A stretch of DNA of 64,000 nt. Source: an uncultured Verrucomicrobiae bacterium. GTDB taxonomy: Bacteria; Verrucomicrobiota; Verrucomicrobiia; Chthoniobacterales; UBA10450. The stretch spans positions 64,001 through 128,000 of the forward strand of contig CAVSDR010000002.1 in the NCBI GenBank assembly GCA_963726745.1, in the 5' to 3' direction. The position numbers were made by a program, and so were the translations under genes. Under the pieces are notes generated by a model, which was not told the DNA's origin, ran no database searches, and was given only the letters and a program-made list of their open reading frames with translations. Positions 1,400 to 60,595 of the stretch are shown here, piece by piece (within the stretch, counting starts at the first letter, position 1; each line of letters begins with the position of its first letter).

Positions 1400-3604
1400 T
1401 TAGCCCTTCTTCTCCGCGGGGGCTTCGCCCGTACCCGGCTCCGGACTCGTTAGGCCGCGGCGCTCGAGCAGTGGCTGAATGTCCGGGCCGCCGCCGGTGA
1501 AGTTCTTGAATTGTTCGAGCGGATCCTCGCTCCCGCCGCGCGAAAGCAAAGTCTTGCGGAACCGATCGCCGTTTTCCCGCGTCATCCCACCGTGTTCCTT
1601 GAACCATTTCACGGTGTCGGCATCGAGGACCTCGCTCCAGATATAGCTGTAGTAACCGGCCGAGTAGCCGCCCGCGAACGCGTGCGAGAAATACGGCGTG
1701 CGATAACGCGGCGGCACCGGCTCGTAGTCCAGGCCCACCTTCTTGAGCGCATCGGCCTCGAAGCCGAGGACGTCTTTCGGAATCTCGCCCGGCTTGAGCT
1801 GATGCCAGGCCTGGTCGAGCAGCGCCGCCGCAAGGTATTCGGTCGTCTTGAAGCCCTGGCCGAATTTTTCCGAGGCGGTCATCTTGTCGAGTAACTCCTT
1901 CGGCATCGGCTCGCCGGTTTGGTAATGCTTCGCGTAATTCTGCAGGACTTGCGGCCAGGTGGCCCACATCTCGTTCACCTGCGAGGGGAACTCGACGAAG
2001 TCGCGCGGGACGTTCGTCCCGGAAAAGCGCGGGTATTTTACGTTGGAAAACATCCCATGGAGCGCGTGGCCGAACTCGTGGAACATCGTCCGCACTTCAT
2101 CGAAGGTCAGGAGCGTGGGCTCGCCTTTTGGTGGCTTCGGGATGTTGAGGTGATTCGCCACCACCGGCTTGGTCTTGAAGAGATCACTCTGCGAGACGTA
2201 TTCGTTCATCCAGGCGCCGCCGCGTTTCGAGGGCCGGGCATACATGTCCGAGAGGAAGAGCGCGAGCGGCTCGCCGTTGGCGTCGAAGACTTCAAAGACG
2301 CGCACGTCCTCCTGGTAAACCGGCAGATCTTTCCGCTCCTTGAAGGTCAGCCCATAGATCTGGCCGGCGGCGTAGAAGACGCCGTCTCGCTGCACATGGT
2401 CCAGCTCGAAGTAGGGGCGCAGCTGCCCTTCGTCGAAGGCGTATTTATCCTTCCGCACCTTCTCTTCGTAAAGGCTCCAGTCCCACGACTTCAGCGGGAA
2501 CTTCTCATTCCCCTGGTCGATCTGCTGCTGGATATCGGCGCCTTCCTTCTTCGCGTTGGCCACCGCCGGCGGCGCGAGTTGGCCTAACAACTTGTTCACC
2601 GTCGGCACGTCCTTGGCCGTCTGATCCTCGAGCTGGTAGGCGGCGTGCGTCTCGTAGCCGAGCAGATTCGCGCGCTCCGCGCGCAGCTTTGCGATTTGCT
2701 TCACCGTCTCGCGCGTGTCGAACTGCCCGCCCTGGCTGTTGCGGTTGAGCGAGGCTTTCATTAAGCGCTCCCGCAGCGCGCGGTTTTGCAGCGATGAAAG
2801 GGCCGGCTGCCCGCTGGTGTTCTGCAGCGCGATGACAAACTTGCCCTCTTTCTTCTCCGCTTTCGCGGTGTTCGCGGCTGCGGCGATTTCGTTGTCGTCC
2901 ATGCCGGCGAGCTCCTCGCGCTTTTCCACCACCACGCCGTTGGCGTTTTTTTCCTTGAGCACGTGCTGGCTGAACTTTGTCTCCAGGCTCGCGAGCTCGC
3001 TGTTCATCTTCTTGAGCTTCTCCTTATCCGCGGCCGAGAGTTTTGCGCCCGCGCGCACGAAGTCCTTGTAGTAACGCTCGAGCAGGTAGGCCGATTCCGC
3101 GTCGAGCTGTAGCTCCGCTTTCTTGTCGTAGATCGCCTGCACGCGCTGGAAGAGTTTCGGGTTCAGGTAAATCGCGTCCTGATGCGCGGAAAGCTTCGGC
3201 GCCATTTCCGTCTCGGTCTTTTGCAGGACGTCGTCGGTGTTTGCGCCGGTGAGGTTGCCGAAGGTGTTGTTCACCCGGGTGAGCACCGTCCCGGATTTCT
3301 CCAGGGCCACGATCGTGTTTTCGAAGGTCGGCTCGTCGGTGCTGTTCGCGATCGCTTCCACTTCCTTCAAGTGCTCCGCGAGCGCGATTGCAAACGCGGG
3401 CGAGAACTGCTCGCTCTTGATCTTGTCGAAGGCCGGCATCTGATACGGCAGCGTGCTTTCGGCGAGTAGCGGATTGGCCGCGGTGGCCTCCTTATTATCC
3501 GGGACGGCGGGCGCTTTTTTAGGCGGAGCAGCATGCATGGATTGGAAAGTGAAGCTCGCCGCGAGGGCGACGAGCAGGAGGCGCGGAAGCAGATGCTTGG
3601 ACAT
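1400..3604 (-). CDS. dcp: M3 family metallopeptidase, peptidyl-dipeptidase Dcp-like, with signal peptide
   Basis: FHEFGHALH zinc motif, RDFVEFPSQVNE, KRGGAWM, YSAGYYSYIWSEVLDAD; N-terminal signal peptide. Confidence 0.92.
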   Translation of the reverse strand: MSKHLLPRLLLVALAASFTFQSMHAAPPKKAPAVPDNKEATAANPLLAESTLPYQMPAFDKIKSEQFSPAFAIALAEHLKEVEAIANSTDEPTFENTIVALEKSGTVLTRVNNTFGNLTGANTDDVLQKTETEMAPKLSAHQDAIYLNPKLFQRVQAIYDKKAELQLDAESAYLLERYYKDFVRAGAKLSAADKEKLKKMNSELASLETKFSQHVLKEKNANGVVVEKREELAGMDDNEIAAAANTAKAEKKEGKFVIALQNTSGQPALSSLQNRALRERLMKASLNRNSQGGQFDTRETVKQIAKLRAERANLLGYETHAAYQLEDQTAKDVPTVNKLLGQLAPPAVANAKKEGADIQQQIDQGNEKFPLKSWDWSLYEEKVRKDKYAFDEGQLRPYFELDHVQRDGVFYAAGQIYGLTFKERKDLPVYQEDVRVFEVFDANGEPLALFLSDMYARPSKRGGAWMNEYVSQSDLFKTKPVVANHLNIPKPPKGEPTLLTFDEVRTMFHEFGHALHGMFSNVKYPRFSGTNVPRDFVEFPSQVNEMWATWPQVLQNYAKHYQTGEPMPKELLDKMTASEKFGQGFKTTEYLAAALLDQAWHQLKPGEIPKDVLGFEADALKKVGLDYEPVPPRYRTPYFSHAFAGGYSAGYYSYIWSEVLDADTVKWFKEHGGMTRENGDRFRKTLLSRGGSEDPLEQFKNFTGGGPDIQPLLERRGLTSPEPGTGEAPAEKKG

Positions 3605-3632
3605 AAGTGTGAGTGAGACGATGGAGTGACTC

Positions 3633-4784
3633 GTGGGGAATGTAAACGAACGGAATCAATCGGTCCTGGCCACGCTCTTGCGTGAAAACCCGGTGGTCGT
3701 GACCGGCCTCGGGGCGCTCTCCGCCGCGGGCGGAAATGTGGCCGCGCTCTGGGCCGCGGCGGCGGCCGGACGCGTGCCCGCCAGTTATGCGGTCGCGAAG
3801 ATTCCGGAGACGCCGGCGCGTTTCCGGCGGCTCGATCGCGCGGCGCAGCTCGCCTGGTGCGCCGCGGCCGAGGCGCTGGCGCAGGCTGGCTTGGGGGAAG
3901 TGGGCACGCCCGAGCGCGTCGGCGTTTTCGTGGGCACCGCGGGCGTTCCGCAGCGCTCGTTAGGCCAGGCGCCCCGCCCTTCCACGGCGGCCGATCAATC
4001 GTTCAGCGCCATCGCCGGGGCGCTCGCGCGGGACTTCGGTTTCCGGGGGCCGTGCGTGACCGTGGCCGCGACCTGCGCCTCCGCGGCGGTGGCCATTGCG
4101 CAGGGCGCAGAGCAGATCTTGCTGGGTAAAATAGACGTCGCCCTGGTGGGTGGCGCCGAGGCGCCGCTTGCGCCGGGACGCATGGCGGAGTTCGCCGCGG
4201 CGGGCGTGCTCGCGCGGGAAAGTTGCCGGCCGTTTGATCGGGCGCGCGACGGCATGGTCCTGGGCGAGGGGAGCGGCTTCCTGGTCTTGGAGTCGTCGGG
4301 CCATGCCCGCGCGCGCGGGGTGAAGTGGCTGGCTAATTTCTCTGGCTGGGCCTACGCGAGCGATGCCCGCAGCCGCACGGCCAACGGCACCGCCGGCCTG
4401 GCCCGCGTCTTGCAAGAAGCTTGTGCGCTGGCGCCCGGCCCGATCGATTACCTCAATCTCCACGGCAACGGCACCGTGCGCGGCGATCGCGAGGAAGCCG
4501 AAGCCGTGGCCCAGCTTTTCCCGGGCGTCCCATGCAGTTCAACGAAGCCCATCACCGGTCATTGCCTGGGGGCCACGCCCGCGCTGGAAGCGATCATTGC
4601 CATCGCAGCGCTGCGCGCACAAACCATCCCGCCGAGCGCGCACTGCGACGCGCAGGACCCAGCCTGCGCCATCTCGCTGGCTAAAACCGCCCGGCCCGCA
4701 GAGCTGCGCACCATCCTTTCGAACTCGTTAGGCTTCTGGGGCCAAACCGCCGCGCTCCTTTTCGCGGCTCCGGCGACTCGTTAG
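3633..4784 (+). CDS. Beta-ketoacyl-ACP synthase (FabF/KAS-like), stand-alone
   Basis: VVVTGLG start, catalytic Cys in ATCAS, CRPFDRARDGMVLGEG, NLHGNGT, STKPITGHCLGA, SNSLGFWG. Confidence 0.85.
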   Translation: MGNVNERNQSVLATLLRENPVVVTGLGALSAAGGNVAALWAAAAAGRVPASYAVAKIPETPARFRRLDRAAQLAWCAAAEALAQAGLGEVGTPERVGVFVGTAGVPQRSLGQAPRPSTAADQSFSAIAGALARDFGFRGPCVTVAATCASAAVAIAQGAEQILLGKIDVALVGGAEAPLAPGRMAEFAAAGVLARESCRPFDRARDGMVLGEGSGFLVLESSGHARARGVKWLANFSGWAYASDARSRTANGTAGLARVLQEACALAPGPIDYLNLHGNGTVRGDREEAEAVAQLFPGVPCSSTKPITGHCLGATPALEAIIAIAALRAQTIPPSAHCDAQDPACAISLAKTARPAELRTILSNSLGFWGQTAALLFAAPATR

Positions 4785-4791
4785 GCGCGAG

Positions 4792-7152
4792 CTAGTCCGG
4801 CGCGAGCGTGGTGACCACGGCTTCGAACCCGGGATCGCCCCGGAGCGGGTCCCAGAATGGGTGCAGTTTAAGGTGCCCATAGCTCCAGTAGCTGTGCACT
4901 TGCGTGGCCTGGTGCAGTTCCTCCGCTGCGAGGTCTTTCTCGCCGGCCCAGCCGTAGATGATCGCGAGGTAGCCGTGGAGGAGGGGAGCATCGACCGCGT
5001 CTTGCGAGATGGGAGTGGCTTCCACGGCGCGGCGCCCTTCGGCGATCGCTTCCGCCTTCTGGCCGAGCGCCGCGCGCGCCATCGCGACGGCGCAAATCGC
5101 GCCGCCGTAGCGCGGCTCTTTCTCCAACTGCTCCTGCGAGAGTCGCAGGGCCTCGGTGAAGTGAGCGCGCGCTCCGGCTTCGTCGCCCGCGAGGCGCGCG
5201 ACCACGCCCTGGCACCAGCTCATGGGGAAGGGGACGCCTTCGGCATTGCAGCCCGTGGAACCGAAGGCCTCCATGGCGCGCTCCGCCTCGGCCGGCTTCC
5301 GTTCGCAGAGCGCCAGTTGGAACCAATACTCCGCGATCGCGCGCCCATCGCCCAGGCTTTGTTCCAGGACCTTTCGCACGGCCGCGCGCAGCGGCGCGGT
5401 GTCTGCATGCCAGTCCAGCTCGACCGCGGCCGCTTGCACCTGGGCCAGCGGATCCTCCGGCGCAAGGCGGAGGACGCGGCGCAGCACCGCGCCCATTTCG
5501 TGGTAGCGCCGCTGGCATTGATAACTGAGTGCAAGCTGGCGCAGGATCTCGAGATTTTCCGGATCCAATTCTGAAGCGCGCAAAAAATTAGCCGTGGAAT
5601 CGCGCCAGTGTCCCTCGCGTCGCTGGATGTAACCGAGGAGCAGCGGCACAAGCGGGTCGTTAGGCAGCTTTTTCTGCGCGTTTTCCAACTCGAGGCGCGC
5701 CTTCGGATGGTCGCCCAGGGCCCAGTAGTAATGTTTTGCCTTCGCCAGGTGGGTCTCCCCGGCATTTGGCTGCAGAGAATCGAGAACCTGCAATTGCGCC
5801 TCGGCCTGCCGGAGCCGCACCGCCCCTGGCTCGAAGCGCCGATAGAGCTGGTCGTAGGTATGGGCCAAAAGATAGTGCGCGAGAAAAAACTGCGGGTCTC
5901 GGGTGGTCGCCTCTTCCAGGTTGCGCGCGGCTCGCTGTAAATCTTCGTGGGCCGCAGAACTGAAGACGGCGTCGCTGATCAAGCCCCGGGCGTCGATGTA
6001 TTTCGAGTATGCCAGCTCGTCGCGTGTCGGGCGCTTCCTGAGCGCGGCCCGCTCCTGCGGCGAGAGCTGGACCTTGAGCTGCGCGGTGATGCGCTGGGCG
6101 ATCTCGCTTTGGATGCTGAAAAGGTCGGACTCGTTGCTGTCGTAGCGGTCGGACCACTGCTGGGTCTCGTGCTCCCCTTCGATCAATTGCACGAGCACAC
6201 GCACGTGCTCTCCCACCCGCTGGACATTCCCTTGCAGGAGGTATTGCACGTCCAAATCATGAGCAATCTTCCGCGTGTCCCGCGGCTGCCCGGGAGAGTA
6301 GCGCGCGCCCGACACGACCTTGAGTCCGGAGACGTGGCCGAGGTTGGTTACGATCTCCTCCTGGAGGCCGTTGACGAAATGCTCGTTGCCCTTTTCGTCG
6401 CTCGCGTTTCCGAAAGGGAGCACGGCGATGCTGGCCGGCTGATGGCGCACAGCATATAAGCCGAGGGCGGCCGCCGAGAGCGCAAGGAACGCGACCAGGG
6501 GCTTCCACCCCCAACGCTGGCCGGCGGTGGAAGGGTCTTTGCCGCGGGGCCACGCGGCCCAGCGGCGTTTCTGTTGCGCGAGTCGCGCGGGCACGGCGGG
6601 GTTGCCCAGGCCATCCTTGCAGACGTTCACCAGGCTGACGCGCAGCCCGTGTTTGACGACACATTCTCCGAGCTCGGTCAGGTGAGGATTCCAATGCCGA
6701 TACGGGCCGAGGTCGTCGGCGGTGCGCTTGGAAAGCAGAATGTGCCCGGCGTCGCCGCAATCGAGCACGCGTTGGGCGATGTTCAAAGCAGAGCCGACAT
6801 AGTTCTTGCTGCCGTTCACATCCTTCACTTCCCGGATGGGCCCGCTGTGCACGCCCATGCGCAGATGCAGTCCCGGCTCCTCCCGGAGCGCCTGCGCGAT
6901 TTCGAGCGCGCATTGCACCGGGGACTCCGGGCTGTCGAAGAAGAGCAAGGCCATGCCGTCGCCCGTGGGCAGCCGGACGAGGTGGCCGGCGCGCTCGCTT
7001 TGCAGCACCCGGCGCGTTTGCCTAACGAGTGCATTCATCCGCTCGACCAGGCGGATTTGTTCATCCACCAACAGCTTGGCGTAGGCGACGATGTCGAGCA
7101 GGAGGACGTGGGCGATCTCCGGCTCGAGATTTGGTTCTGGCTCAGTTGCCAT
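4792..7152 (-). CDS. Class III nucleotide cyclase domain + TM helix + TolB-like domain + TPR repeats
   Basis: HVLLLDIVAY, PTGDGMALLF, RMGVHSGP, NIAQRV (cyclase); SIAVLPF (TolB-like); helical repeats ending WDPLRGDPGF; start taken at ATG 7152. Confidence 0.88.
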   Translation of the reverse strand: MATEPEPNLEPEIAHVLLLDIVAYAKLLVDEQIRLVERMNALVRQTRRVLQSERAGHLVRLPTGDGMALLFFDSPESPVQCALEIAQALREEPGLHLRMGVHSGPIREVKDVNGSKNYVGSALNIAQRVLDCGDAGHILLSKRTADDLGPYRHWNPHLTELGECVVKHGLRVSLVNVCKDGLGNPAVPARLAQQKRRWAAWPRGKDPSTAGQRWGWKPLVAFLALSAAALGLYAVRHQPASIAVLPFGNASDEKGNEHFVNGLQEEIVTNLGHVSGLKVVSGARYSPGQPRDTRKIAHDLDVQYLLQGNVQRVGEHVRVLVQLIEGEHETQQWSDRYDSNESDLFSIQSEIAQRITAQLKVQLSPQERAALRKRPTRDELAYSKYIDARGLISDAVFSSAAHEDLQRAARNLEEATTRDPQFFLAHYLLAHTYDQLYRRFEPGAVRLRQAEAQLQVLDSLQPNAGETHLAKAKHYYWALGDHPKARLELENAQKKLPNDPLVPLLLGYIQRREGHWRDSTANFLRASELDPENLEILRQLALSYQCQRRYHEMGAVLRRVLRLAPEDPLAQVQAAAVELDWHADTAPLRAAVRKVLEQSLGDGRAIAEYWFQLALCERKPAEAERAMEAFGSTGCNAEGVPFPMSWCQGVVARLAGDEAGARAHFTEALRLSQEQLEKEPRYGGAICAVAMARAALGQKAEAIAEGRRAVEATPISQDAVDAPLLHGYLAIIYGWAGEKDLAAEELHQATQVHSYWSYGHLKLHPFWDPLRGDPGFEAVVTTLAPD

Positions 7153-7220
7153 GGGGGCCTGCGCGGGAGCTCTGTCGCGCCACTTTGGCGAACTAGCTCC
7201 CGTTTCGTCGAGGCGAAAGC

Positions 7221-8117
7221 TTATCTCGCCGCTGGTGCCGCCGTGGCTCCGCGCTCCGGCGCGAAGGCCGCGAGGTTCAGCACGATCATCGCGCTGGCAA
7301 AAAGCGGCATGCCCATGAGCAGGCCAATGCCGAGATGCAGCAGGCAAATTGCGGCCAGCCAAAAGGGTCGTGTCCGGCGGGGCCAGATCATGAGCGGGAA
7401 GGTTAATTCCAGCAGCCAGAGGGCGATTCCGGCTGCGGGGAGGAGAAAGCGCAGCGCCGCCAGCCCATCTGGCGGGAGCAGGTCAAAGGGCGGACGCACC
7501 AGCGCGCGCCAAAGACTGTTGCCGTTCCACCAGCCGGGTCCCAAGGCTTTTGCGAGCCCGCTGAAGAAATACAGCAGGCAAAGATGAATCTGCAGGGCAC
7601 GCCGGATGAGGATCGGGGCCGCGGGCGGCACCGCGCGGCCGAAGCGGTGGTCCAAGGTCCAGCGATCCGGCGTGGGCGCGAGCACGAGATAGAAGAGTCC
7701 GATGGTCATCGCGCTATCGACCCCATAGCTCAGCAGCCCGCTGCTTTTCGCCACCAGCAAATGGAGCAGCCAGCCGGAAATCGCGGCCCCGCGGGTGAAA
7801 AGTCCCAAGACCAGGAACAGCCCCGAAAGCAGGAGCAGAAGCCAGAGCCAGTGGAGCGCGGTCTCCGCGGGAAACTCCCCGAACGCTTTGGCCAGCCACC
7901 CGAGGTGCGGCACAAAGACTCCGCGCGCCTGCCACCACGCGCTGCTGATCTCGCTGCCTAAAAATCCGCGCCCACCCGCGCCCAAAAGAAAAATCCAGGA
8001 AGGCCGCAGCGCCAGGCAGAACAGGATCAGCTGCAAGCCCATGCCGCAGCGGAGGACCGCTACCCACGAGAGCGACGCCGGCGCAAAGAAGAACCGCTCG
8101 AGGGTCGCTCTACTCAC
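7221..8117 (-). CDS. HTTM-domain membrane protein (SdpB/vitamin K-dependent carboxylase-like)
   Basis: Multiple TM helices; LQIHLCLLYFFSGLAK..GPGWWNG, LLELTFP, LHLGIGLLMG are typical HTTM segments. Confidence 0.8.
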   Translation of the reverse strand: MSRATLERFFFAPASLSWVAVLRCGMGLQLILFCLALRPSWIFLLGAGGRGFLGSEISSAWWQARGVFVPHLGWLAKAFGEFPAETALHWLWLLLLLSGLFLVLGLFTRGAAISGWLLHLLVAKSSGLLSYGVDSAMTIGLFYLVLAPTPDRWTLDHRFGRAVPPAAPILIRRALQIHLCLLYFFSGLAKALGPGWWNGNSLWRALVRPPFDLLPPDGLAALRFLLPAAGIALWLLELTFPLMIWPRRTRPFWLAAICLLHLGIGLLMGMPLFASAMIVLNLAAFAPERGATAAPAAR

Positions 8118-8679: not shown

Positions 8680-8682
8680 GCG

Positions 8683-9099: not shown

Positions 9100-9213
9100 A
9101 TTCTGAGGGAGGGGATGTAAGACTGCTGCTAACCGTTTATACGGAATTGCGGCTTCCGGGTTCCGAAAAACTTCGCGGGAGCCTGGGCCATTGAATAACA
9201 TGAAGGCCCCAGC

Positions 9214-11874: not shown

Positions 11875-11982
11875 GCCGTCTGCCGGCAACATGTAGCCGC
11901 CCGCGGCGTCGGTGCGCTCCTCTTCCGCGCCCCCGTTTTTCCTCTGGAAAGCGCCCGACGTGCGTCTATCTTCGACGCCTTT

Positions 11983-52034: not shown

Positions 52035-52055
52035 ATCGCCGCTAGAAGTCGCTGG

Positions 52056-54650
52056 CTAATTCGCGTCCGCTTCCGTTTCGACTTCCGCCTCGTCGATCAC
52101 GTCGCTCACCACCGGCGCGATCGCCTGGAGCTTCTCGCCCGATTTCAGGTCCATCAATTTTACGCCCATGGTGTTCCGGCCGACGGCGCGGATCTCCTTG
52201 ATCCGCGTGCGCACCATCTGGCCCTTGGTCGTAATCAGCATGAGCTCGTCGGCGTCGGTCACGGTGAGAGCGCCGACGACTTTGCCGGTCTTGTCGCCCG
52301 TTTTCATCGTGATGATGCCTTTGCCTCCGCGGGACTGCGTGCGGTAATCGTCGAACGGCGTCCGTTTGCCGATGCCGTTCTCGCCGGCCACGAGCAACAT
52401 GGCATCCGTGTTCACGATCGCACTCGCGACCACGTGATCGCCTTTCACCGGGCGAATGCCCCAGACGCCCACGGTGTTGCGCCCCTGGTCGCGCAGCTGA
52501 TCCTCATGGAAACGCAGGCTCATGCCGTTGCGCGTGATCAGGACGATCTGGTCGTCGCCGGTGGTTAGTTGCGCGTCGATCAGGCAATCGTCTTCCTCGA
52601 TCTGGATGGCAATGATGCCGCCTTTCCGGACGTTGGAGTAATCGGAAAGGTTCGACTTCTTCACGATGCCGGTGCGGGTGGCGAAGACGATGTGCAGGTT
52701 TTCGTCCCAAGTAGTGTCAACCGCGTTCGCGCCGATGCCGGTGCGCTTCGACTGGATGCGGATGGTCGCGGCGATTTTCTCGTCGCTCCGCAGTTCGAGC
52801 AGGTTCGCGATCGAGCGACCTTTGGCGGCGCGGCCCATCTCCGGAATCTCGTAGACTTTCTCCACGTAGCAGCGGCCGCTCTCGGTGAAGAACATCAGGT
52901 AATCGTGCGTCGTCGCGGTGAAGAGATGCTCCACGAAGTCGCCCTCGTCCTCGTCGCGCGCGCCTTCGCGGGCGACCATGCCGATGACGCCTTTGCCGCC
53001 GCGACGCTGCGCGCGGAAGGCGCTCACCGCGGTCCGCTTGATGAAGCCGCCGTGGGTAATGGTGATGATCGTCCCTTCGTTGGCGATCAAGTCTTCCATG
53101 TTGATCTCGCCCTCGTCGGGGACAAGCTGCGTCAGGCGCGGGCCGGCGTACTTCGTCTGGATTTCGCGCAGCTCGGCCTTGATGATCTCGAGCACGCGCG
53201 ACTCCTTCGCGAGGATGTCGCGCAGGTCCTTGATCCGCTCGATCAACTCGTTGTACTCCGCCTGGAGCTTCTCGCGCTCGAGACCGGTCAGCTGGTAAAG
53301 GCGGAGATCGAGGATCTGATTCGCCTGGTGTTCGCTGAAGGCGTAACGGCCGTCGACCAGGCGCGCTTCGTTGCGGATCAGGATGCCGATCTGTTCGACC
53401 TGTTTGCGGGTGAACTCGAAGGCTAAAAGTTTGACCCGCGCTTCTTCGCGGTTGGCCGAGTTGCGGATGATGCGGATGAACTCGTCGAGATTAGCCAGCG
53501 CGATCAGGTAACCTTCGAGGGTCTCGGCGCGGTCCTCGGCTTTGCGCAATTCGAAGCGCGTCCGGCGCAGCACGACCTCGCGGCGATGCTCGATGTAAGC
53601 CGTGTTCGCGTCCTTCAGGTTGAGCAGCTTCGGCCGGCCGTGATCGATCGCGAGCATCGAGGCGGCGAACGAACTCTCGAGCGCGGTGTGCTTGTAAAGA
53701 TTGTTGATGACGACCTTGGGATTGCCGTCGCGCTTGAGCTCGATGACCACGCGCGTGTTCTCATCGGACTCGTCGCGGATCGCGCTGATATCAGTCAGCA
53801 CTTTGTCGTTCACCAGCGAGGCGATCCGTTCCACGAGAGTGGCGCGGTTCACGTTGTAGGGAATCTCGGTGATCACGATCTGCTCGCGATTGCCCTTGAG
53901 CTCCTCGACGCCGGCTTTGCCGCGCACTTTCATGCTCCCGCGGCCGGTCTCGAGGTATTGCTTGATCCCGCTCAACCCGCAAAGGGCGCAGCCGGTCGGA
54001 AAGTCCGGGCCCTTCACGTATTTCATCAGGCCTTCGACCGTGATGTCAGGATCGTCGATCTGCGCGCAGATGCCGTCGATGACTTCGCCGAGGTTATGCG
54101 GCGGGATGTTCGTGGCCATGCCGACGGCGATGCCGGTGCCGCCGTTAACCAGCAGGTTCGGGAAAGCGCTCGGGAAGACCGTCGGCTCGGTGCGGGTCTC
54201 GTCGTAGTTCGGGACGAAGTCGACCGTGTCCTTGTCCATGTCGACCATGAGCGCGGCGCCCAGGTGCGTCATGCGCGCCTCGGTGTAACGCATCGCGGCC
54301 GGCGGATCGCCTTCCACGGAACCAAAGTTGCCCTGGCCGTCGACCAGGGTCTCGCGCATGGCCCAGTCCTGCGCCATGTGCACCAGCGTCGGGTAAATTA
54401 CCGCCTCGCCGTGCGGGTGATAGTTACCGCTGGTGTCGCCGCAAATCTTGGCGCACTTACGATGCTGCCGGTTCGGGAAGAGCGAGAGGTCGTGCATCGC
54501 AAACAGGATGCGACGCTGCGAAGGCTTGAGCCCGTCGCGCGCATCGGGGAGCGCGCGCGAGATGATGACCGACATGGAGTAATCGAGGAATGACCTCGAG
54601 ACTTCTTCGGCGACGTTGATGGGCTCGATCTTTTCGTTGGGGTTATACAC
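52056..54650 (-). CDS. gyrA: DNA gyrase subunit A
   Basis: RALPDARDGLKP, YHPHGE, AAMRYTE, GyrA-box QRRGGKG, C-terminal pinwheel repeats. Confidence 0.97.
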   Translation of the reverse strand: MYNPNEKIEPINVAEEVSRSFLDYSMSVIISRALPDARDGLKPSQRRILFAMHDLSLFPNRQHRKCAKICGDTSGNYHPHGEAVIYPTLVHMAQDWAMRETLVDGQGNFGSVEGDPPAAMRYTEARMTHLGAALMVDMDKDTVDFVPNYDETRTEPTVFPSAFPNLLVNGGTGIAVGMATNIPPHNLGEVIDGICAQIDDPDITVEGLMKYVKGPDFPTGCALCGLSGIKQYLETGRGSMKVRGKAGVEELKGNREQIVITEIPYNVNRATLVERIASLVNDKVLTDISAIRDESDENTRVVIELKRDGNPKVVINNLYKHTALESSFAASMLAIDHGRPKLLNLKDANTAYIEHRREVVLRRTRFELRKAEDRAETLEGYLIALANLDEFIRIIRNSANREEARVKLLAFEFTRKQVEQIGILIRNEARLVDGRYAFSEHQANQILDLRLYQLTGLEREKLQAEYNELIERIKDLRDILAKESRVLEIIKAELREIQTKYAGPRLTQLVPDEGEINMEDLIANEGTIITITHGGFIKRTAVSAFRAQRRGGKGVIGMVAREGARDEDEGDFVEHLFTATTHDYLMFFTESGRCYVEKVYEIPEMGRAAKGRSIANLLELRSDEKIAATIRIQSKRTGIGANAVDTTWDENLHIVFATRTGIVKKSNLSDYSNVRKGGIIAIQIEEDDCLIDAQLTTGDDQIVLITRNGMSLRFHEDQLRDQGRNTVGVWGIRPVKGDHVVASAIVNTDAMLLVAGENGIGKRTPFDDYRTQSRGGKGIITMKTGDKTGKVVGALTVTDADELMLITTKGQMVRTRIKEIRAVGRNTMGVKLMDLKSGEKLQAIAPVVSDVIDEAEVETEADAN

Positions 54651-54658
54651 GGCGGGTT

Positions 54659-55147
54659 CGAACTAGACAGGATTTACAGGATTGTTTGGATGAACAGGAT
54701 GATGCAGATCGACTCCCTCGGGAGCAGACGTTTGCCGGCGATGCTTGCGTTTGAACTGCAGGCTGGGAGTTCCGAAATTCAAGAGGAGACCGATGTCGTG
54801 CTGAGTCGCGGTCAGGTAGTTCACTAGCTGCACTTCATCGGCTTTGCTTAAGGCACTCGCTGCTTTCAGTTCGCAAAGGATGAAGCCATTCACGACGACG
54901 TCCGCGATGAAGTCGCCCACAATGACGTGCTCGTATTTGACCGTAATCCGTTTTTCCAGTTCGACGGAAAGGCCAGCGCGCCGGAGCTCAAAGGCGAACG
55001 CGTTTCGATAGACGGATTCAAGGAACCCCGAGCCTAGTCCCCGGTGCACCTTCATGGCGCATCCGATGATCCTTTCGGTGAGCGCGTGATCTTCAGTGAA
55101 ATCCAATCCAGTAAATCCTTTGAATCCCATCAATCCTGTCTAGTTCG
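54659..55147. mobile_element. Inverted-repeat-bounded cassette carrying a GxxExxY gene, between gyrB and gyrA
   Basis: CGAACTAGACAGGATT (54659-54674) and AATCCTGTCTAGTTCG (55132-55147) are perfect reverse complements; each continues inward as four 9-nt-spaced GGAT units; interior is visibly more AT-rich. Confidence 0.6.
54663..55130 (-). CDS. GxxExxY protein (PD-(D/E)XK nuclease superfamily)
   Basis: IIGCAMKVHRGLGSGFLESVYRNA, ADVVV..ILCELKA, QLVNYL, GLLLNFG. Confidence 0.92.
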   Translation of the reverse strand: MGFKGFTGLDFTEDHALTERIIGCAMKVHRGLGSGFLESVYRNAFAFELRRAGLSVELEKRITVKYEHVIVGDFIADVVVNGFILCELKAASALSKADEVQLVNYLTATQHDIGLLLNFGTPSLQFKRKHRRQTSAPEGVDLHHPVHPNNPVNPV

Positions 55148-57760
<2,613 letters not shown>

Positions 57761-57943
57761 CTAGAGGAGAAAGCGTTGGGCAACAACGGATTTTTCCGGT
57801 TTGGAACCCGGTATTTTCCGCAACAAATAGTGCCCGGGACCACGGCGAGCGCGCTATCTTGTGCCCCGTCGAGGTTTGGCCCTGCCGGCTCGGAGAGGAC
57901 GCTTGACCGTCTCCGTTCCGCCCTCGAACCTGTGGGCGAAATT

Positions 57944-58573
57944 ATGCGCTGGCAGACACTTTATGAAGGCCGTTGGATCTTCGCCATTCTCGCCCTGCTG
58001 GCGCTCATCTCGCTGTTTATTTTTCCGTGGCTCGCGCTGCTTTTCGTGGCGCTGATTGTTTACACGCTGGCCTTCTTTCGCGACCCCGAGCGAACCACGC
58101 CGCCGGATGCGCAGATCGTGGTCGCCGCGGCCGATGGTGTGGTTGCCGACATCATGGAAATCGAGGAGCCGGAAGTGCTCAGGGCGTCAATGAAGCGCGT
58201 CGGCATTTTCCTCTCCGTCTTCGACGTGCACACGAACCGCGCGCCGGTCGAAGGCCGGGTCAGTTATCGGCAACATCACGAAGGTCTTTGCCTCGATGCG
58301 CGCAGCCCGGAGTGTTCCGGCAAAAACGAAGCCATGACCTGGGCGTTTGAGAATCCGCGCGCGGTCGTGGTCGTGCGCCAGCTCACCGGCGCGATTGCCC
58401 GGCGCATCGTCGGCTGGTCCGAGGTGGGCGATTACCTCGCGAAGGGCGAACGCTTCGGGATGATCCGCTTTGGCTCGCGCACGGAAGTCTACCTGCCGCT
58501 CGAGGCGGAGATCACGGTGAAGGTCGGCGAGCGCGTCGTCGGCGGAGCCTCGATCATCGCGCGGCTTCCCTAA
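57944..58573 (+). CDS. psd: Phosphatidylserine decarboxylase proenzyme
   Basis: FFRDPER, IFLSVFDVHTNRAP, IARRI, FGMIRFGSR (GS cleavage site). Confidence 0.9.
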   Translation: MRWQTLYEGRWIFAILALLALISLFIFPWLALLFVALIVYTLAFFRDPERTTPPDAQIVVAAADGVVADIMEIEEPEVLRASMKRVGIFLSVFDVHTNRAPVEGRVSYRQHHEGLCLDARSPECSGKNEAMTWAFENPRAVVVVRQLTGAIARRIVGWSEVGDYLAKGERFGMIRFGSRTEVYLPLEAEITVKVGERVVGGASIIARLP

Positions 58574-58576
58574 CGC

Positions 58577-59414
58577 ATGTCCGACGAGCAATACCCGAAG
58601 ATCTACCTGCTGCCGAACTTGATGACGGCGGGTAACCTCTTTTGTGGGTTCGCGGCCACGCTGAAGATCGTCCAGGGCGCGCTTTTGCAATCGACGCAGC
58701 CGGATGCCGCTTCCGCGCTCTTCCATGCGGCGATTTGGTTCATCCTCGGCGCCTGCGTCTTCGACTTGCTCGATGGCCGCCTCGCACGGCTCGGCGGGCA
58801 GGATAGCCCGTTCGGGCGGGAGTTCGACTCGTTAGCCGACATTGTCTCGTTCGGCCTGGCGCCGGCGCTGATGGTTTACCGGATTGTCTTGATCGACTTT
58901 CCGCCGGCAGCCGGCTCGGTGATTGCGTTTGTCTATCTCGTTTGCGGCGCCTTGCGCCTGGCGCGTTTTAATTGCATCGCCGCGGCCGGGAGCTCCGGTG
59001 GACGGGACAAAAACTTCCGCGGCTTTCCGATTCCTGCGGCTGCGGGAGTGATCGCGTCGCTGACGCTTTTCATGCTCTGGTGGACTGGGGAGCGCGACCA
59101 CGAGATCGGTCGCTGGAAGTGGGTCCTGCCGCCGCTGATGGTCTTCCTTTCGTTCATGATGTTCAGCAAGTTCAGCTACCCGAGCTTCAAGGGAGTGAAC
59201 TGGCGGACAACACGCTCGGTGCCCGCGTTTCCTCGCGATCAGCCTCATCCTCATCCTGACGGTGATGAACTACGAGTGGATGCCGGCGGTCCTCTTCCTC
59301 GCGTATCTGCTCTACGGCTTCCTGCGGCCCTGGCTTTCGAAAGCCTGGCGGCGCGAAATCGAGGAAGAGATCGGCGAGGAGATCCCCGGCGAGTCGGCCG
59401 ATGACGCTGTCTAG
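58577..59414 (+). CDS. pssA: CDP-diacylglycerol--serine O-phosphatidyltransferase; +1 frameshift near 59229
   Basis: LPNLMTAGNLFCG, DLLDGRLAR..DSLADIVSFG, RLARFN; corrected frame ends at TAG 59414. Confidence 0.9.
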
Positions 59415-60124
59415 CCGTTGAGCTGGGCGAGAACTTCCGGGTCGCGCACGTCGGCCCAATCGCCCGTCAGCTCGAGCGCCTGAACTTTGCGGCCAGAATG
59501 CGCCAGGGCGCGGATGGCGTCGGTTAGTTCGTATTCGCCGCGGGGCGAACGCTCCAGCTTGGCGGTGAACTCGAAAATGCTCGGGCGAAAGGCGTAGACG
59601 CCGGCGTTATACCAGGGGCTCGTTGGCTCGCCCGGGAGCGGTTTCTCGCGCAGGTCGGTGAGCTCGAATTTGTCATTCACAAAGACCGCGCCGCCCTGGC
59701 TGACGTCGTCGGAATGCTTCACCGACACGATCGCCTCGGTCTCGTTAGGCAGCGAGATCAGGCGTAGGTAATTCTCCGGGTCGAGCAGGATGTCGCCGTA
59801 GCTCAAGAGAAATGGATTCGACCCGCAAAAGTCGCGCGCTAATTCGACCACGCGGCCGGTGCCGTCCTGCGTCTCCTGGATGGCGTAGCTCACCCGCGCG
59901 CCGAGTTTCCCGCCATCGCCAAAGAATTCCCGCACGACCTCCGCGCGCCAGCCGACGATCATGAGAACGTCGGCAATGCCTGCGGCCTGCATGCCCTCGA
60001 GGATGTGCTGCAGGATCGGCTTCCCGCGCACCGACAGCATCGGCTTTGGCAAAGCGCTCGTTAGTTCGCGCATGCGCGTGCCCCGGCCGGCGGCGAGAAG
60101 GACAGCTTTGCGGATCGCGCTCAT
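59411..60124 (-). CDS. Sugar-phosphate nucleotidyltransferase (RmlA/GlmU-like)
   Basis: AVLLAAGRGTRM..LPKPML, YGD, EKP, SPRGEYELTDA. Confidence 0.9.
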   Translation of the reverse strand: MSAIRKAVLLAAGRGTRMRELTSALPKPMLSVRGKPILQHILEGMQAAGIADVLMIVGWRAEVVREFFGDGGKLGARVSYAIQETQDGTGRVVELARDFCGSNPFLLSYGDILLDPENYLRLISLPNETEAIVSVKHSDDVSQGGAVFVNDKFELTDLREKPLPGEPTSPWYNAGVYAFRPSIFEFTAKLERSPRGEYELTDAIRALAHSGRKVQALELTGDWADVRDPEVLAQLNG

Positions 60125-60190
60125 CCTCGAACGCTTCGACGCGCTCCGTTTCATTTGCAATCTCTCTTTGGATTCGCCAGCGTCCGCCCC

Positions 60191-60595
60191 ATGCGCATGC
60201 AATTCCTGGCGAAATACCGTGAGACCGGCCTCCTCCTGATGCGCCTTGGGCTGGGCGTGCTCTTTATCATCCTCACCGGACCGGTGCTGCTCGGCGGGCC
60301 AAGCCGCTGGGCCGCTTTTGGCAACGGCATCCGGCATCTTGGCTTGCACTCGCATTATCAGTTCTGGGGCTTCCTCGGTGCGCTCATGGGCTGCGCCGGC
60401 GGCGCCTTGATGATTTTTGGGCTGTTCTTCCGGCCGGCGGTGCTGCTCGTTTTTGCGCTCACGTGCATCCACTTGTTAGGCGCGCTCGACGGCGCAAGCG
60501 CGTGGCGGGCAAACCTGGCCGCGGTGGAGCTCGCCCTTATGCTCCTCGGCCTGCTCTTCGTGGGCCCAGGGAAGTACAGCGTGGATAAATCCTAG
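60191..60595 (+). CDS. DoxX family membrane protein
   Basis: GLLLMRLGLG, GLFFRPA, GPGKYSVD. Confidence 0.82.
   Translation: MRMQFLAKYRETGLLLMRLGLGVLFIILTGPVLLGGPSRWAAFGNGIRHLGLHSHYQFWGFLGALMGCAGGALMIFGLFFRPAVLLVFALTCIHLLGALDGASAWRANLAAVELALMLLGLLFVGPGKYSVDKS

What the first reader, a model, noticed from the sequence alone, without database searches (positions are those of the whole stretch)
1446..60481. Highly iterated, non-palindromic 10-mer CTCGTTAGGC dispersed through core genes: candidate DNA-uptake sequence or other genome-wide signal
Seen: 16 exact copies by manual count. + strand: 1446, 3956, 4724, 4777, 8369, 10209, 22286, 24563, 44800, 49216, 59741. - strand: 7020, 10955, 29573, 46033, 55937. 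Twelve more keep the GTTAGGC core (2582, 5656, 11567, 21086, 21713, 24290, 28424, 35839, 36331, 40550, 50301, 60472), and variants such as CTCGTTAGCC/T occur at 320, 1396, 13143, 43017, 47618 and 58828. A zero-order estimate at about 65% GC gives roughly 0.15 expected exact copies over both strands, so enrichment is about 100-fold. It is not a protein motif: it is read in different frames and orientations, as S-L-G (TCG TTA GGC; valS, gyrB, KAS, PagL-like), L-L-G, G/S-L-T (CTA ACG; dcp, glyQS), L-P-N-E (murI, nucleotidyltransferase) and L-V-R. It forces TTA/CTA codons that are otherwise rare here, and it also sits intergenically 12 nt after tRNA-Leu. Established: Neisseria DUS and Pasteurellaceae USS show this pattern (about 10 bp, non-palindromic, both strands, within core and DNA-maintenance genes), whereas Chi and KOPS are strand-polarised and HIP1 is palindromic. 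Inference: an uptake-sequence-like or nucleoid-protein-binding signal that I do not know to be described for this lineage. The pilMNO and pilT genes in the same window fit a competence link.
Basis: partly seen in the sequence, partly recalled or inferred. Interest (0 to 1): 0.9.

Follow-up and report, generated by a model that had tools for sequence, protein, structure and literature searches.

The report
Genome-wide DNA words in soil Verrucomicrobia
An uncultured soil bacterium has a 9-10 letter DNA word, plus a second, younger one, written thousands of times through unrelated genes, which is the pattern of the 'self' tags a few other bacteria use to recognise their own DNA and has not been described for this group.

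Summary
CTCGTTAGGC occurs 16 times in the window against 0.14 expected. It occurs 820 times in the 3.4 Mb genome and is the commonest 10-mer there. The 9-mer core TCGTTAGGC ("word A") has 1312 copies.

Word A lies on both strands without polarity and in all four stop-free frames plus spacers. A synonymous-codon shuffle gives 9.2 copies of the 10-mer in genes against 628 observed. It is enriched in 89 of 121 genomes of one Chthoniobacterales family. It is not enriched in 221 genomes of 15 sister families.

- This genome carries a second, almost species-specific word B (TTAGNCRRC-N4-TS), with 1492 copies against 55 for the control.
- Other genera carry an unrelated word C (AAGATCGACA), with up to 4653 copies. 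Words co-exist in one genome.
- A family-wide orphan methyltransferase does not track any word.

My best reading, at about 0.5, is a DNA-uptake or transformation "self" tag spread by molecular drive. Function is untested. This scan had already reported word A in at least six other genomes of the clade. I found nothing on it in print.

The parts
1446..1455 (+). word A, exact 10-mer CTCGTTAGGC, antisense in dcp
3956..3965 (+). word A, exact 10-mer, in the fabF-like gene
4724..4733 (+). word A, exact 10-mer
4777..4786 (+). word A, exact 10-mer, at the end of the fabF-like gene
5657..5665 (+). word A 9-mer TCGTTAGGC, position 1 not C; overlaps a word B match at 5660-5674
7020..7029 (-). word A, exact 10-mer
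8369..8378 (+). word A, exact 10-mer
10209..10218 (+). word A, exact 10-mer
10955..10964 (-). word A, exact 10-mer; overlaps a word B match at 10946-10960
11567..11575 (-). word A 9-mer
21086..21094 (-). word A 9-mer, in glyQS
22286..22295 (+). word A, exact 10-mer, just upstream of valS
24563..24572 (+). word A, exact 10-mer, in valS (S-L-G)
29573..29582 (-). word A, exact 10-mer, next to the pilM-linked genes
35840..35848 (+). word A 9-mer
36331..36339 (-). word A 9-mer; overlaps a word B match at 36322-36336
40551..40559 (+). word A 9-mer
44800..44809 (+). word A, exact 10-mer, intergenic, 12 nt after tRNA-Leu(taa) at 44703-44787; overlaps word B at 44804-44818
46033..46042 (-). word A, exact 10-mer
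49216..49225 (+). word A, exact 10-mer, in the PagL-like gene; overlaps word B at 49220-49234
50301..50309 (-). word A 9-mer
55937..55946 (-). word A, exact 10-mer, in gyrB (S-L-G). The exact 9-mer stands at this orthologous site in 39 of 67 gyrB orthologues.
59741..59759 (+). composite site: word A 10-mer (59741-59750) running into word B (59745-59759)
320..58837 (.). six CTCGTTAGCY variants (position 9 G>C) at 320(-), 1396(+), 13143(+), 43017(-), 47618(+), 58828(+); five further GTTAGGC cores without TCG at 2582(-), 21713(-), 24293(+), 28427(+), 60475(+)
346..61016 (.). 31 copies of word B (TTAGNCRRCNNNNTS), both strands, against 0.44 expected. Starts: 346, 1194, 4322, 4670, 5660, 7947, 10946, 18996, 21767, 24534, 25704, 28215, 33774, 35034, 36322, 40651, 42214, 42292, 42365, 43657, 44804, 46645, 49189, 49220, 50356, 52045, 53491, 57086, 58832, 59745, 61002
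30661..31743 (-). pilM-like gene (context only; not shown to be linked to the words)
60592..61830 (-). pilT/pilU-family retraction ATPase (context only)

Best explanation
CTCGTTAGGC (core TCGTTAGGC, word A) is a DNA-level recognition word of one family of uncultured soil Chthoniobacterales. It is read as double-stranded DNA by a lineage-specific protein. It has been spread and kept in native DNA by molecular drive: DNA fragments carrying the word are preferentially taken up, or preferentially survive and recombine, during natural transformation, so word-bearing alleles replace word-free ones. In other words it works like the DNA uptake sequences of Neisseriaceae and Pasteurellaceae, or like cyanobacterial HIP1 as recently reinterpreted. 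In this genome a second word with the same TTAG core but other flanks (word B, W-TTAG-[C>G]-C-RRC-RMNWTS) has arisen recently and appears to be the one now spreading. Word A is inherited from the family ancestor.

Shown: abundance, DNA-level nature, lack of polarity, phylogenetic distribution, site conservation, origin by substitution, and absence from islands.

For: 1. Abundance and sharpness. There are 820 10-mers and 1312 9-mers in 3.4 Mb, against 6.1 and 19.7 under an order-3 Markov model. The core TCGTTAG tolerates almost no one-letter variants (0-28 copies each, except C3>T with 93), while positions 1, 9 and 10 are looser.

2. DNA level, not protein. All four stop-free frames, both orientations and spacers are used. 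433 of 753 S-L-G tripeptides use TCG TTA GGC, against 4.2 expected from codon usage. S-L-G (753 against 477 expected) and P-N-E (241 against 101) are themselves in excess, so the word has changed proteins. The codon shuffle gives 9.2 against 628.

3. No polarity. 656 of 1305 neighbours share orientation and the 50-kb bins are balanced. Over 121 genomes the totals are 40,109 forward and 40,298 reverse.

4. Lineage restriction with heritable strength. The word is at least 3x its control in 89 of 121 family genomes (28 of 36 genera). It has 0-45 copies in 221 genomes of 15 other families of the order.

5. Dialect-like turnover. Word B shares TTAG with A and is essentially private to this genome: TTAGCCAGC has 479 copies here, 127 and 136 in two others, and 3-49 in the other 118. 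Word C dominates other genera.

6. Conservation at an orthologous site. In gyrB the exact word stands in 39 of 67 orthologues, and 71% of S-L-G encodings there use it, against a median of 31% for the commonest encoding over 583 conserved tripeptide windows. Third codon positions are only 58% identical. The aligned columns at word sites have no gaps in gyrB, and a gyrB site private to G000 differs from its orthologues only by synonymous letters. So copies arise by substitution.

7. Absence from likely foreign or diversifying DNA. The four longest A-free stretches (103 kb in all, where about 40 copies would be expected) are O-antigen, EPS, exosortase and secreted-protease clusters, the first two with lower G+C. 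Treangen et al. 2008 report the same for DUS (PMC2397512, abstract and passages).

8. Copies of the same word avoid each other at short range. A-A gaps under 200 bp number 32 against 97.8 +- 9.4 for random placement. This is expected if one copy per fragment is enough.

9. The uptake machinery is encoded: a ComEC-like gene, DprA, three secretins, PilT, PilM, 13 prepilin-type ORFs and a T2SS/T4P-like pseudopilin operon just beyond the window.

10. Precedent outside Proteobacteria. HIP1 raises transformation efficiency in Synechococcus and has been proposed as an uptake recognition sequence (abstracts of 10.1101/2024.09.10.611283 and PMC13756078).
Against: - No uptake, binding or transformation data exist. 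The organisms are uncultured, and I found no paper that links Chthoniobacterales with natural transformation.
- The competence genes do not discriminate. ComEC-like genes are in 41 of 41 relatives, including 16 genomes of families without the word. ComEC and DprA are intact in 5 of 5 genomes of the word-poor genus g29. The GspH/FimT-like minor pilin is in 5 of 5 genomes tested, whatever their words. TIGR00426 (ComEA) was not found in this genome; there is only a 29-bit HHH_3 match.
- Two or three unrelated words co-exist at high density in one genome. This genome has A at 1312 and B at about 1500. G062 has A at 1803 and C at 4653. As far as I recall, the described DUS and USS systems have one word per genome.
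- A and B do not avoid each other: 154 A sites have a B site within 100 bp, against 119.5 +- 10.3 for random placement. They would be expected to avoid each other if they were redundant tags for one process.
- There are no inverted-repeat terminator pairs. Only 11 pairs lie closer than 100 bp, and 5 of those are inverted. DUS often form such pairs (PMC2397512 passage).
- One-mismatch core variants are near chance level, a sharper profile than I would expect from a soft uptake bias. I have no figures for the known systems to compare with.
Confidence: 0.5

Rival explanations
1. The words are binding sites of abundant, lineage-specific chromosomal DNA-binding proteins (nucleoid organisation, condensin loading, segregation, or a strand or repair signal). 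They are kept by selection on chromosome function, not by uptake.
For: Distribution along the genome is even and orientation-free. Same-word copies avoid each other at short range, as footprints or a spacing rule would produce. The word is strongly conserved at an orthologous site. Xu et al. 2018 drew this conclusion for HIP1 from conservation and periodicity (PMC5861425, abstract). Several words in one genome are natural if several proteins are involved. Competence genes do not track the words.
Against: Selection site by site would have to create about 1500 copies of a nearly species-private word B quickly, and would have to override codon and amino-acid preferences. A drive does this more easily. 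Whole genera of the same family (g29, 8 genomes; G227 sampled over 215 kb with no word above 4.4x) manage without any such word. No candidate protein was identified.
Confidence: 0.2
2. The words result from a modification-linked or otherwise sequence-specific repair or gene-conversion bias acting inside the cell (the older model for HIP1). This might involve the family-wide orphan DNA methyltransferase. It would need no uptake.
For: An orphan beta-class N6/N4 methyltransferase (C3:981068-982039, SPPY motif) has housekeeping neighbours and no restriction gene beside it. Its closest solved relative is the orphan M.BceJIV, E 1e-19. It is found in 22 of 24 same-genus and 5 of 5 other-genus family members tested. 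Among 16 genomes of other families only two matched: G039 with two pieces at 61% and 44% identity, and G035 at 28%. So it shares the family-level distribution of the word phenomenon. HIP1 is also tied to two orphan methylases (abstracts). Copies arise by substitution. Word B stands at 76% of its genome-wide density in islands that have no word A, as an in-situ process would give.
Against: The methyltransferase is intact in genomes with no word (G227), with word C only (G050) and with word A only (G098). It is uniformly conserved along its whole length across them, so it probably has one specificity and cannot set three different words. It has about 265 residues, which by my recollection of the class is too small to read 9-15 bp. 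The other methyltransferases of this genome are not conserved in the genus (C5-MTase in 4 of 24) or lie at contig ends. I know of no repair system with a contiguous non-palindromic 9-15 bp specificity.
Confidence: 0.12
3. The words are Chi-like signals that switch a helicase-nuclease from degradation to recombination on linear DNA. That DNA could be incoming by any route or could come from two-ended breaks. Word-bearing DNA would then survive and recombine. This is a drive after entry rather than at uptake.
For: The density of about one per 2.6-4 kb, the non-palindromic form, the species-specific identity and the absence from foreign DNA resemble Chi (this comparison is from recollection). The HIP1 preprint proposes a Chi-like component next to an uptake component (abstract). 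Both orientations are useful on a fragment with two ends.
Against: There is no co-orientation at all: 656 of 1305 neighbours share orientation, with no runs in contigs up to 1.18 Mb. As I recall, the Chi sites described so far are strongly co-oriented with replication. The enrichment is 65-130 fold and the length 9-15 bp, both well above what I recall for Chi. I did not search for RecBCD or AddAB.
Confidence: 0.1
4. It is an artefact or an ordinary feature: a basecalling or assembly error, a protein motif, a codon-usage effect, or a miniature mobile element.
For: Several genes in the window look split (cstA, prfC), which suggests some indel errors in the assembly.
Against: The same word is hyper-abundant in 89 of 121 independently assembled genomes of the family and absent from 221 genomes of sister families. 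It stands at the same gyrB codon triplet in 39 of 67 records whose contig names come from several assemblers. Four frames and both strands are used. The codon shuffle gives 9.2 against 628. Flanks carry no conserved sequence, and the gyrB sites align to orthologues without gaps.
Confidence: 0.02

Closest known systems
DNA uptake sequences (DUS) of Neisseriaceae, read by the minor pilin ComP, with their dialects (PMC3630211 abstract; PMC2397512 abstract and passages)
   Same: Both are non-palindromic words of about 10-12 bp in hundreds to thousands of copies, on both strands, inside core genes, and highly conserved as DNA. Both are absent from recently acquired or diversifying regions. Both have lineage-specific variants that keep a small common core: CTG in DUS, TTAG for words A and B here.
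   Different: The phylum is different (Verrucomicrobiota). Uptake has not been tested and no ComP-type receptor has been identified. There are no inverted-repeat terminator pairs. Two unrelated or half-related words are abundant in one genome. Word C shares no core with A or B.
Uptake signal sequences (USS) of Pasteurellaceae (PMC1626085, PMC3458573: search listing and abstract starts only)
   Same: Both have a 9-bp core with weaker flanking preferences, are written into coding DNA in several frames at a cost to the proteins, and come in distinct types in different genera of one family.
   Different: Word B has its flanking information on one side only, with a T 13 bp from the core start. The receptor is unknown in both systems as far as I recall. 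There is no functional test here.
HIP1 (GCGATCGC) of cyanobacteria (PMC5861425, PMC4390886, PMC13756078, 10.1101/2024.09.10.611283: abstracts)
   Same: Both are 15-300-fold over-represented words, clade-wide, conserved within and between genes, and accompanied by orphan methyltransferases conserved at clade level. HIP1 has recently been linked to natural transformation.
   Different: HIP1 is a palindrome whose inner letters are the methylase targets. The words here are non-palindromic, 9-15 bp long and several per family, and the conserved orphan methylase does not co-vary with them.
Chi sites and polar motifs such as KOPS and AIMS (recalled, not read here)
   Same: They are short, non-palindromic, species-specific, over-represented words in native DNA.
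   Different: Those are co-oriented with replication. Here orientation is random at every scale examined.

Membership tests
DNA uptake sequences (DUS/USS type) | Short non-palindromic word present in hundreds to thousands of copies, far above chance | tested here: met
   820 and 1312 copies against 6.1 and 19.7 expected (order-3 Markov); commonest 10-mer of the genome
DNA uptake sequences (DUS/USS type) | Both orientations, no replication polarity, dispersed over the whole chromosome | tested here: met
   375 forward and 445 reverse; 656 of 1305 neighbours share orientation; every 50-kb bin but one holds copies
DNA uptake sequences (DUS/USS type) | Maintained as DNA, in any usable frame, at a cost to codon and amino-acid usage | tested here: met
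DNA uptake sequences (DUS/USS type) | Over-represented in core DNA, absent from recently acquired or diversifying regions, conserved at orthologous sites | tested here: met
   No interior copy in 103 kb of polysaccharide and secreted-protein islands, where about 40 would be expected; gyrB site kept in 39 of 67 orthologues. I did not make a formal core/accessory partition.
DNA uptake sequences (DUS/USS type) | Lineage-specific variants (dialects or types) within one family | tested here: met
   Words A, B and C have different phylogenetic ranges
DNA uptake sequences (DUS/USS type) | Word-bearing DNA is preferentially taken up or transforms better | not testable with these tools
DNA uptake sequences (DUS/USS type) | A cognate surface receptor (ComP-type minor pilin in Neisseria) | tested here: inconclusive
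   13 prepilin-type ORFs and a pseudopilin operon are present. The one candidate I tested, a GspH/FimT-like pilin, is present in 5 of 5 genomes whatever their words.
DNA uptake sequences (DUS/USS type) | Competence machinery encoded (ComEC, DprA, type IV pilus, ComEA) | tested here: inconclusive
   A ComEC-like gene (below the TIGR00361 cut-off), DprA, PilT, PilM and three secretins were found. ComEA was not found with TIGR00426. All of these are equally present in word-free relatives.
DNA uptake sequences (DUS/USS type) | Frequent close inverted pairs that act as terminators | tested here: not met
   11 pairs closer than 100 bp, 5 of them inverted, against 49 close pairs expected at random
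DNA uptake sequences (DUS/USS type) | One dominant word per genome | tested here: not met
   A plus B in this genome; A plus C in G062, G166, G075 and others
HIP1-type highly iterated palindromes | Palindromic octamer | tested here: not met
   Words A, B and C are not palindromes
HIP1-type highly iterated palindromes | Orphan methyltransferases that recognise the word's inner letters and share its phylogenetic range | tested here: inconclusive
   A family-wide orphan methyltransferase exists. Its target is unknown, and it is intact and unchanged in genomes without the word.
HIP1-type highly iterated palindromes | Periodic spacing at 10-90 kb | not tested
   I analysed only short-range spacing
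Chi / KOPS / AIMS polar motifs | Co-orientation with replication | tested here: not met
Miniature mobile or repetitive elements (REP/MITE-like) | Conserved flanks or terminal repeats; copies appear as insertions | tested here: not met
   Flanks carry only codon periodicity. No gaps at the aligned sites of 67 gyrB orthologues; at the 3 dcp sites the commonest letters of the 30 orthologues are ungapped.

The most novel reading that the evidence does not exclude
One family of soil Verrucomicrobia runs a multi-word, fast-evolving 'self-DNA' code. At least three different hyper-abundant recognition words exist: A is family-wide and ancient, C is found in 18 of 36 genera, and B is nearly private to this species. 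They are read by interchangeable, heritable readers of the uptake or recombination pathway. Several readers can be active in one cell, and new words overwrite the genome within the lifetime of a species. This would be the first uptake-sequence system in the PVC superphylum, and the first in which birth, co-existence and replacement of such words can be followed across hundreds of genomes.
Probability: 0.35. Interest if true: 0.92.

Novelty: new variant of a known kind. Interest (0 to 1): 0.8.

Why it matters
To my knowledge, sequence-specific recognition of 'own' DNA has been shown experimentally in only two proteobacterial families, with cyanobacterial HIP1 as a recent candidate. How such words arise, change and are read is an open question. 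Here a very abundant, uncultured soil lineage shows the same genomic signature with three features that make the question tractable.

- There are natural negative controls inside the family: genus g29 has no word.
- One word is nearly private to a single species.
- Some genomes carry two words at once.

The words could also serve as markers of native against acquired DNA and of gene flow barriers in soil Verrucomicrobia. If uptake is not involved, the pattern points to an undescribed sequence-specific process that rewrites thousands of sites.

Tried and rejected
1. Public reads. One soil study held only low-depth contigs (share of words 0.16, 0.08 and 0.00). No listed difference falls inside the eight exact sites of window 1-20000, but cover at those sites could not be verified, so this adds nothing.

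2. An alternative word in the low-density congener G002 (254 kb). The top words were protein repeats and tandem repeats, and no dispersed word exceeded about 10x.

3. A hidden third word in G227 (215 kb). Nothing exceeded 4.4x.

4. A and C as halves of one composite motif. There is no fixed A-C spacing in 263 kb of G062. I dropped my idea of shifting half-sites (A = TCG + TTAGSC, B = TTAGSC + GC-RAGATS, C = GCAAGATC + GAC) as unsupported.

5. Methyltransferases as word-setters. The C5-MTase sits in a word-free island and is found in only 4 of 24 congeners. The conserved N6/N4 enzyme does not co-vary with the words.

6. Competence genes as discriminators. ComEC, DprA and a GspH/FimT-like pilin are present whatever the words.

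7. The dcp alignment gave too few copies to say much: 8 copies at 3 aligned sites in 30 orthologues.

8. Gene calls come from my own crude codon-score caller, which marks 86% of the genome as coding. The intergenic share of 27% is therefore only approximate.

9. Literature. The word strings occur in 130 papers. The 20 listed are unrelated by title and none of them has the string in its title or abstract; I did not see the other 110. 'DNA uptake sequence' plus Verrucomicrobia gave 3 unrelated papers by title. Chthoniobacterales plus natural transformation gave 0. Udaeobacter/competence/DNA uptake gave 1 paper with all three terms (PMC13755416), which I did not read.

Full report
**Observation.** The 10-mer CTCGTTAGGC is present 16 times in the window at exactly the coordinates and strands given. 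Dinucleotide-preserving shuffles give 0.14 on average and never more than 2. The 12 further GTTAGGC cores, the six CTCGTTAGCY variants and the copy 12 nt behind tRNA-Leu(taa) are also as described. The 9-mer TCGTTAGGC occurs 23 times.

**Genome-wide.** The window is C2:64001-128000 of a 3.41 Mb assembly in 7 contigs with 64% G+C. The 10-mer has 820 copies, 375 forward and 445 reverse, while the reversed word has 33. It is the most frequent 10-mer of the genome; the next, a GC-rich simple word, has 519. An order-3 Markov model expects 6.1.

The per-position table defines the motif. Position 1 is C 820, G 237, T 226, A 29. The core TCGTTAG has 0-28 copies of each one-letter variant, except C3>T with 93. 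Position 9 is G 820, C 166, T 81, A 54. Position 10 is C 820, G 99. The 9-mer TCGTTAGGC ("word A") has 1312 copies. Flanks carry only the three-base periodicity of coding DNA, so the word is not part of a longer repeat.

**It is a DNA word, not a peptide or codon effect.** I used my own crude gene calls, which mark 86% of the genome as coding. Of the 1312 copies, 433 are read S-L-G, 225 x-L-T-x, 206 P-N-E/D and 89 V-R, and 359 are intergenic or only partly in a gene. The two remaining frames contain TAG or TAA.

- 433 of 753 S-L-G tripeptides are spelled TCG TTA GGC, where codon usage predicts 4.2.
- S-L-G (753 against 477 from amino-acid frequencies) and P-N-E (241 against 101) are in excess. 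The controls G-L-S (417 against 477) and T-L-G (397 against 460) are not.
- 433 of 2981 TTA codons and 225 of 1545 CTA codons lie in the word.
- Shuffling synonymous codons within each gene, 20 times, leaves 9.2 +- 3.5 copies of the 10-mer against 628 observed in genes.

**No polarity; same-word spacing.** Forward and reverse copies are balanced in 50-kb bins along contigs of up to 1.18 Mb. 656 of 1305 neighbouring copies share orientation. This excludes a Chi/KOPS-type polar signal.

Copies avoid each other at short range. Gaps under 200 bp number 32 against 97.8 +- 9.4 for random placement, and gaps under 400 bp number 120 against 186. Only 11 pairs lie within 100 bp, 5 of them inverted. So the terminator-like inverted pairs known from DUS (PMC2397512 passage) are missing.

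**Word-free stretches.** Gaps over 10 kb are in excess, 38 against 26.9 +- 4.4. The four longest together span 103 kb, where about 40 copies would be expected. They are:
- an O-antigen-type cluster at C7:60-95 kb, G+C 0.593;
- a second polysaccharide cluster at C6:414-438 kb, G+C 0.600;
- an exosortase/EPS locus at C3:2.7-25 kb;
- a cluster of secreted subtilases at C5:118-140 kb.

These are loci that typically diversify or are exchanged between lineages.

**Whose word is it?** Record titles of 79 gyrB relatives place the genome among uncultured Chthoniobacterales (Verrucomicrobiota, "Spartobacteria") from soils. Word A is enriched in 24 of 24 congeners first drawn, with 138-2412 copies against reversed controls of 30-118.

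In an order-wide draw of 251 genomes, 221 genomes of 15 other families hold 0-45 copies. In the rows I inspected that is below their own control. In 121 genomes of the family (36 genera) the word is at least 3x its control in 89 genomes (28 genera) and at least 10x in 35. The strength is similar within a genus: g21 is 20-56x, g23 24-47x, g24 about 3.5x and g29 0.5-2.6x. The trait is therefore heritable and confined to the family.

**Conservation and origin of copies.** In a codon alignment of 67 gyrB orthologues, the copy at window 55937 has the exact 9-mer in 39.
- 55 orthologues have S-L-G there. 71% of these spell it with the word, and 5 more differ only in the last letter.
- The commonest spelling of 583 other conserved tripeptide windows has a median share of 31%.
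- Third codon positions are 58% identical to this genome.
- Orthologues without the word mostly have CTC, CTT or CTG for the leucine. No TTG intermediate occurs, and a CTA occurs only once (AACCTAGGC).
- The aligned columns at the sites have no gaps, so copies arise by substitution.

In 30 dcp orthologues there are only 8 copies at 3 aligned sites. At one of them the commonest letters are TCGCTCGGC (8), TCGTTAGGC (4) and TCGTTCGGC (2).

**New: a second word in this genome.** After masking nothing and ranking all 8-10-mers against an order-3 Markov model, a second family stands out:
- TTAGCCAGC, 479 copies against 15.7 expected;
- TTAGCCGGC, 318;
- TTAGCCGAC, 315;
- TTAGGCAGC, 219;
- TTAGACAGC, 122.

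Aligning all 2035 TTAGNCRRC sites shows more information downstream: R at +9, A/C at +10, W at +12, T at +13 (78%) and S at +14 (93%). This is "word B", W-TTAG-[C>G>A>T]-C-RRC-R-M-N-W-T-S.

The pattern TTAGNC(AG|GG|GA)C-N4-TS has 1492 copies against 55 for its reversed control. It has 31 copies in the window against 0.44 expected. The codon shuffle gives 56.7 against 1157. Like A, it lies in several frames, both orientations and spacers, and evenly along genes.

A and B share TTAG but are partly exclusive. 32% of all 6288 TTAG are preceded by TCG, but only 19% of TTAGNCRRC are. After TCGTTAG the next letters are GC (1312) far more often than CC (240). Without TCG they are CC (1485) far more often than GC (412).

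**Word B is young and behaves independently of A.** TTAGCCAGC has 479 copies here. It has 127 in one congener (G015) and 136 in G206 (an unpublished genome of g29). It has 3-49 in the other 118 family genomes, below their controls.
- A copy in gyrB private to this genome differs from the orthologues' CTGGCCAGC or CTCGCCAGC only by the synonymous change of leucine to TTA.
- B-B pairs avoid each other mildly: 104 gaps under 200 bp against 142.7 +- 10.8.
- A-B pairs do not avoid each other: 154 within 100 bp against 119.5 +- 10.3.
- In the four A-free islands B stands at 33 per 100 kb, against 43.8 genome-wide and 1.0 for the control.

The simplest reading is inference only. A is inherited from the family ancestor and no longer gains sites here. 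B is being written now, including into DNA that arrived after A stopped spreading.

**New: a third, unrelated word in other genera.** A 287-kb sample of G050, which belongs to the same family and has no A, revealed AAGATCGACA ("word C"). Its copy numbers in the family draw are as follows:
- It has at least 100 copies in 46 of 121 family genomes (18 genera), with reversed controls of 0-8.
- Genus g18 has 2673-4653 copies, about one per 650 bp in G062.
- This genome has 22.
- Cross-tabulated, 60 genomes are A only, 29 are A and C, 17 are C only and 15 are neither.
- G062 holds 1803 A and 4653 C, with no fixed spacing between them.
- A 215-kb sample of G227 (g29) has no word above 4.4x.

So the family has internal negative controls.

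**Candidate readers and writers.** The genome encodes the following:
- a ComEC-like protein, whose two-part match sums below the TIGR00361 cut-off;
- DprA at 252 bits;
- three secretins;
- PilT at 345 bits, and PilM;
- 13 prepilin-type ORFs;
- directly beyond the window, a pseudopilin operon with GspG/H/I/J/K-like, PilM/N-like and GspF genes.

ComEA was not found with TIGR00426; there is only a 29-bit HHH_3 match. None of these discriminates. ComEC-like genes are in 41 of 41 relatives, including families without words. ComEC and DprA are intact in 5 of 5 g29 genomes. The GspH/FimT-like pilin is in 5 of 5 genomes with differing words.

**The orphan methyltransferase.** An orphan N6/N4 DNA methyltransferase looked promising. 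It lies at C3:981068-982039, has an SPPY motif, and has housekeeping neighbours with no restriction gene beside it. Its closest solved relative is the orphan M.BceJIV, which targets GTWWAC (PMC11380664 abstract). It is found in 22 of 24 congeners. Among 16 genomes of other families only two matched, one in two pieces (61% and 44% identity) and one at 28%. However, it is also intact in family members with no word, with C only and with A only. It is uniformly conserved along its length across them. It therefore cannot set the different words. At most it is a shared accessory.

**Interpretation.** The computable hallmarks match those reported for DUS: over-representation in the core, absence from recently acquired and diversifying regions, high conservation of the sites, and dialects that keep a small core (abstracts and passages of PMC2397512 and PMC3630211).

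A drive explains two things better than site-by-site selection. One is how a nearly species-private word can reach about 1500 copies. The other is how words can override codon and amino-acid preferences. The established drive is biased uptake or survival of word-bearing DNA followed by homologous recombination. HIP1 of cyanobacteria shows that such words exist outside Proteobacteria and can act in transformation (abstracts).

Four things argue against a simple transfer of the Neisseria model:
- several words co-exist in one genome;
- A and B do not avoid each other;
- there are no terminator pairs;
- competence genes do not co-vary with the words.

I therefore give the uptake or transformation reading about 0.5. 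I give a chromosomal binding-site function about 0.2, an intracellular modification- or repair-linked conversion about 0.12, and a Chi-like post-entry signal about 0.1.

**Novelty.** I found no description of these words, nor of uptake specificity or natural transformation, in this lineage. Of the 130 papers that hold the word strings I saw only the 20 listed, which are unrelated by title. The one paper holding all three terms (PMC13755416) I did not read.

The present scan had already reported the 9-mer in at least six other genomes of the clade, and one of those notes mentions a different word in sister lineages. I confirmed both points independently.
- word B;
- the co-existence and cross-tabulation of A and C over 121 genomes;
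- the contrast between A-free and B-bearing islands;
- the same-word spacing rule;
- the gyrB site conservation;
- the negative result for the orphan methyltransferase.

Claims that rest on unpublished genomes: the G206 figures, and the rows of G001, G008, G285 and G291 in the count tables.

Noticed in passing
window 346-61016 (31 sites); genome-wide 1492: There is a second hyper-abundant DNA-level motif, W-TTAG-[C>G]-C-RRC-RMNWTS (word B). It is nearly private to this genome and shares only TTAG with the reported 10-mer.
   Followed up: yes
G050, G062 and 44 other family genomes (loci L060-L076, L163-L176): An unrelated non-palindromic word, AAGATCGACA[A/T], reaches up to 4653 copies per genome. 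In several genera it co-exists with TCGTTAGGC.
   Followed up: yes
G000:C3:981068-982039 (L049:1252-2226): A family-restricted orphan beta-class DNA methyltransferase with an SPPY motif sits in a housekeeping neighbourhood. It is a relative of the epigenetic regulator M.BceJIV. Its target is unknown.
   Followed up: partly
G000:C7:60030-95400; C6:413728-437792; C3:2759-24943; C5:118309-139559: Polysaccharide, exosortase and subtilase clusters lack word A entirely but carry word B at near-normal density. The first two have lower G+C.
   Followed up: partly
G000:C2:128189-136230 (L177:4189-12230), just right of the window: A T2SS/T4P-like pseudopilin operon (two N-methyl minor pilins, GspJ-like, GspK-like, PilM/N-like, GspM-like, GspG, GspF) lies directly after pilT and the FTR1-like gene.
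   Followed up: partly
window 22323-26174: The valS ORF has 1283 aa, but the ValRS profile matches only from residue about 420. Either there is a long N-terminal extension or the start is mis-called.
   Followed up: no
window 26934-29068 and 50432-52034: cstA (419 aa, matching positions 5-396 of a 701-position profile) and prfC (347 aa, matching 6-295 of 529) look truncated, with a further ORF following each. These may be frameshifts or assembly indels.
   Followed up: no
genome-wide: Hexamer and heptamer tandem arrays (GCCAAC)n and (CCGACTC)n account for the commonest 12-14-mers, with about 140 and about 55 copies. They show a strand imbalance (43-47 against 95-100).
   Followed up: no
window 44703-44787: The tRNA-Leu(taa), which reads TTA, sits 12 nt before a composite A+B site. 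About a third of all in-frame TTA codons of the genome lie inside words: 433 of 2981 in word A and 542 in the non-G forms of word B (TTAG[ACT]C[AG][AG]C).
   Followed up: partly
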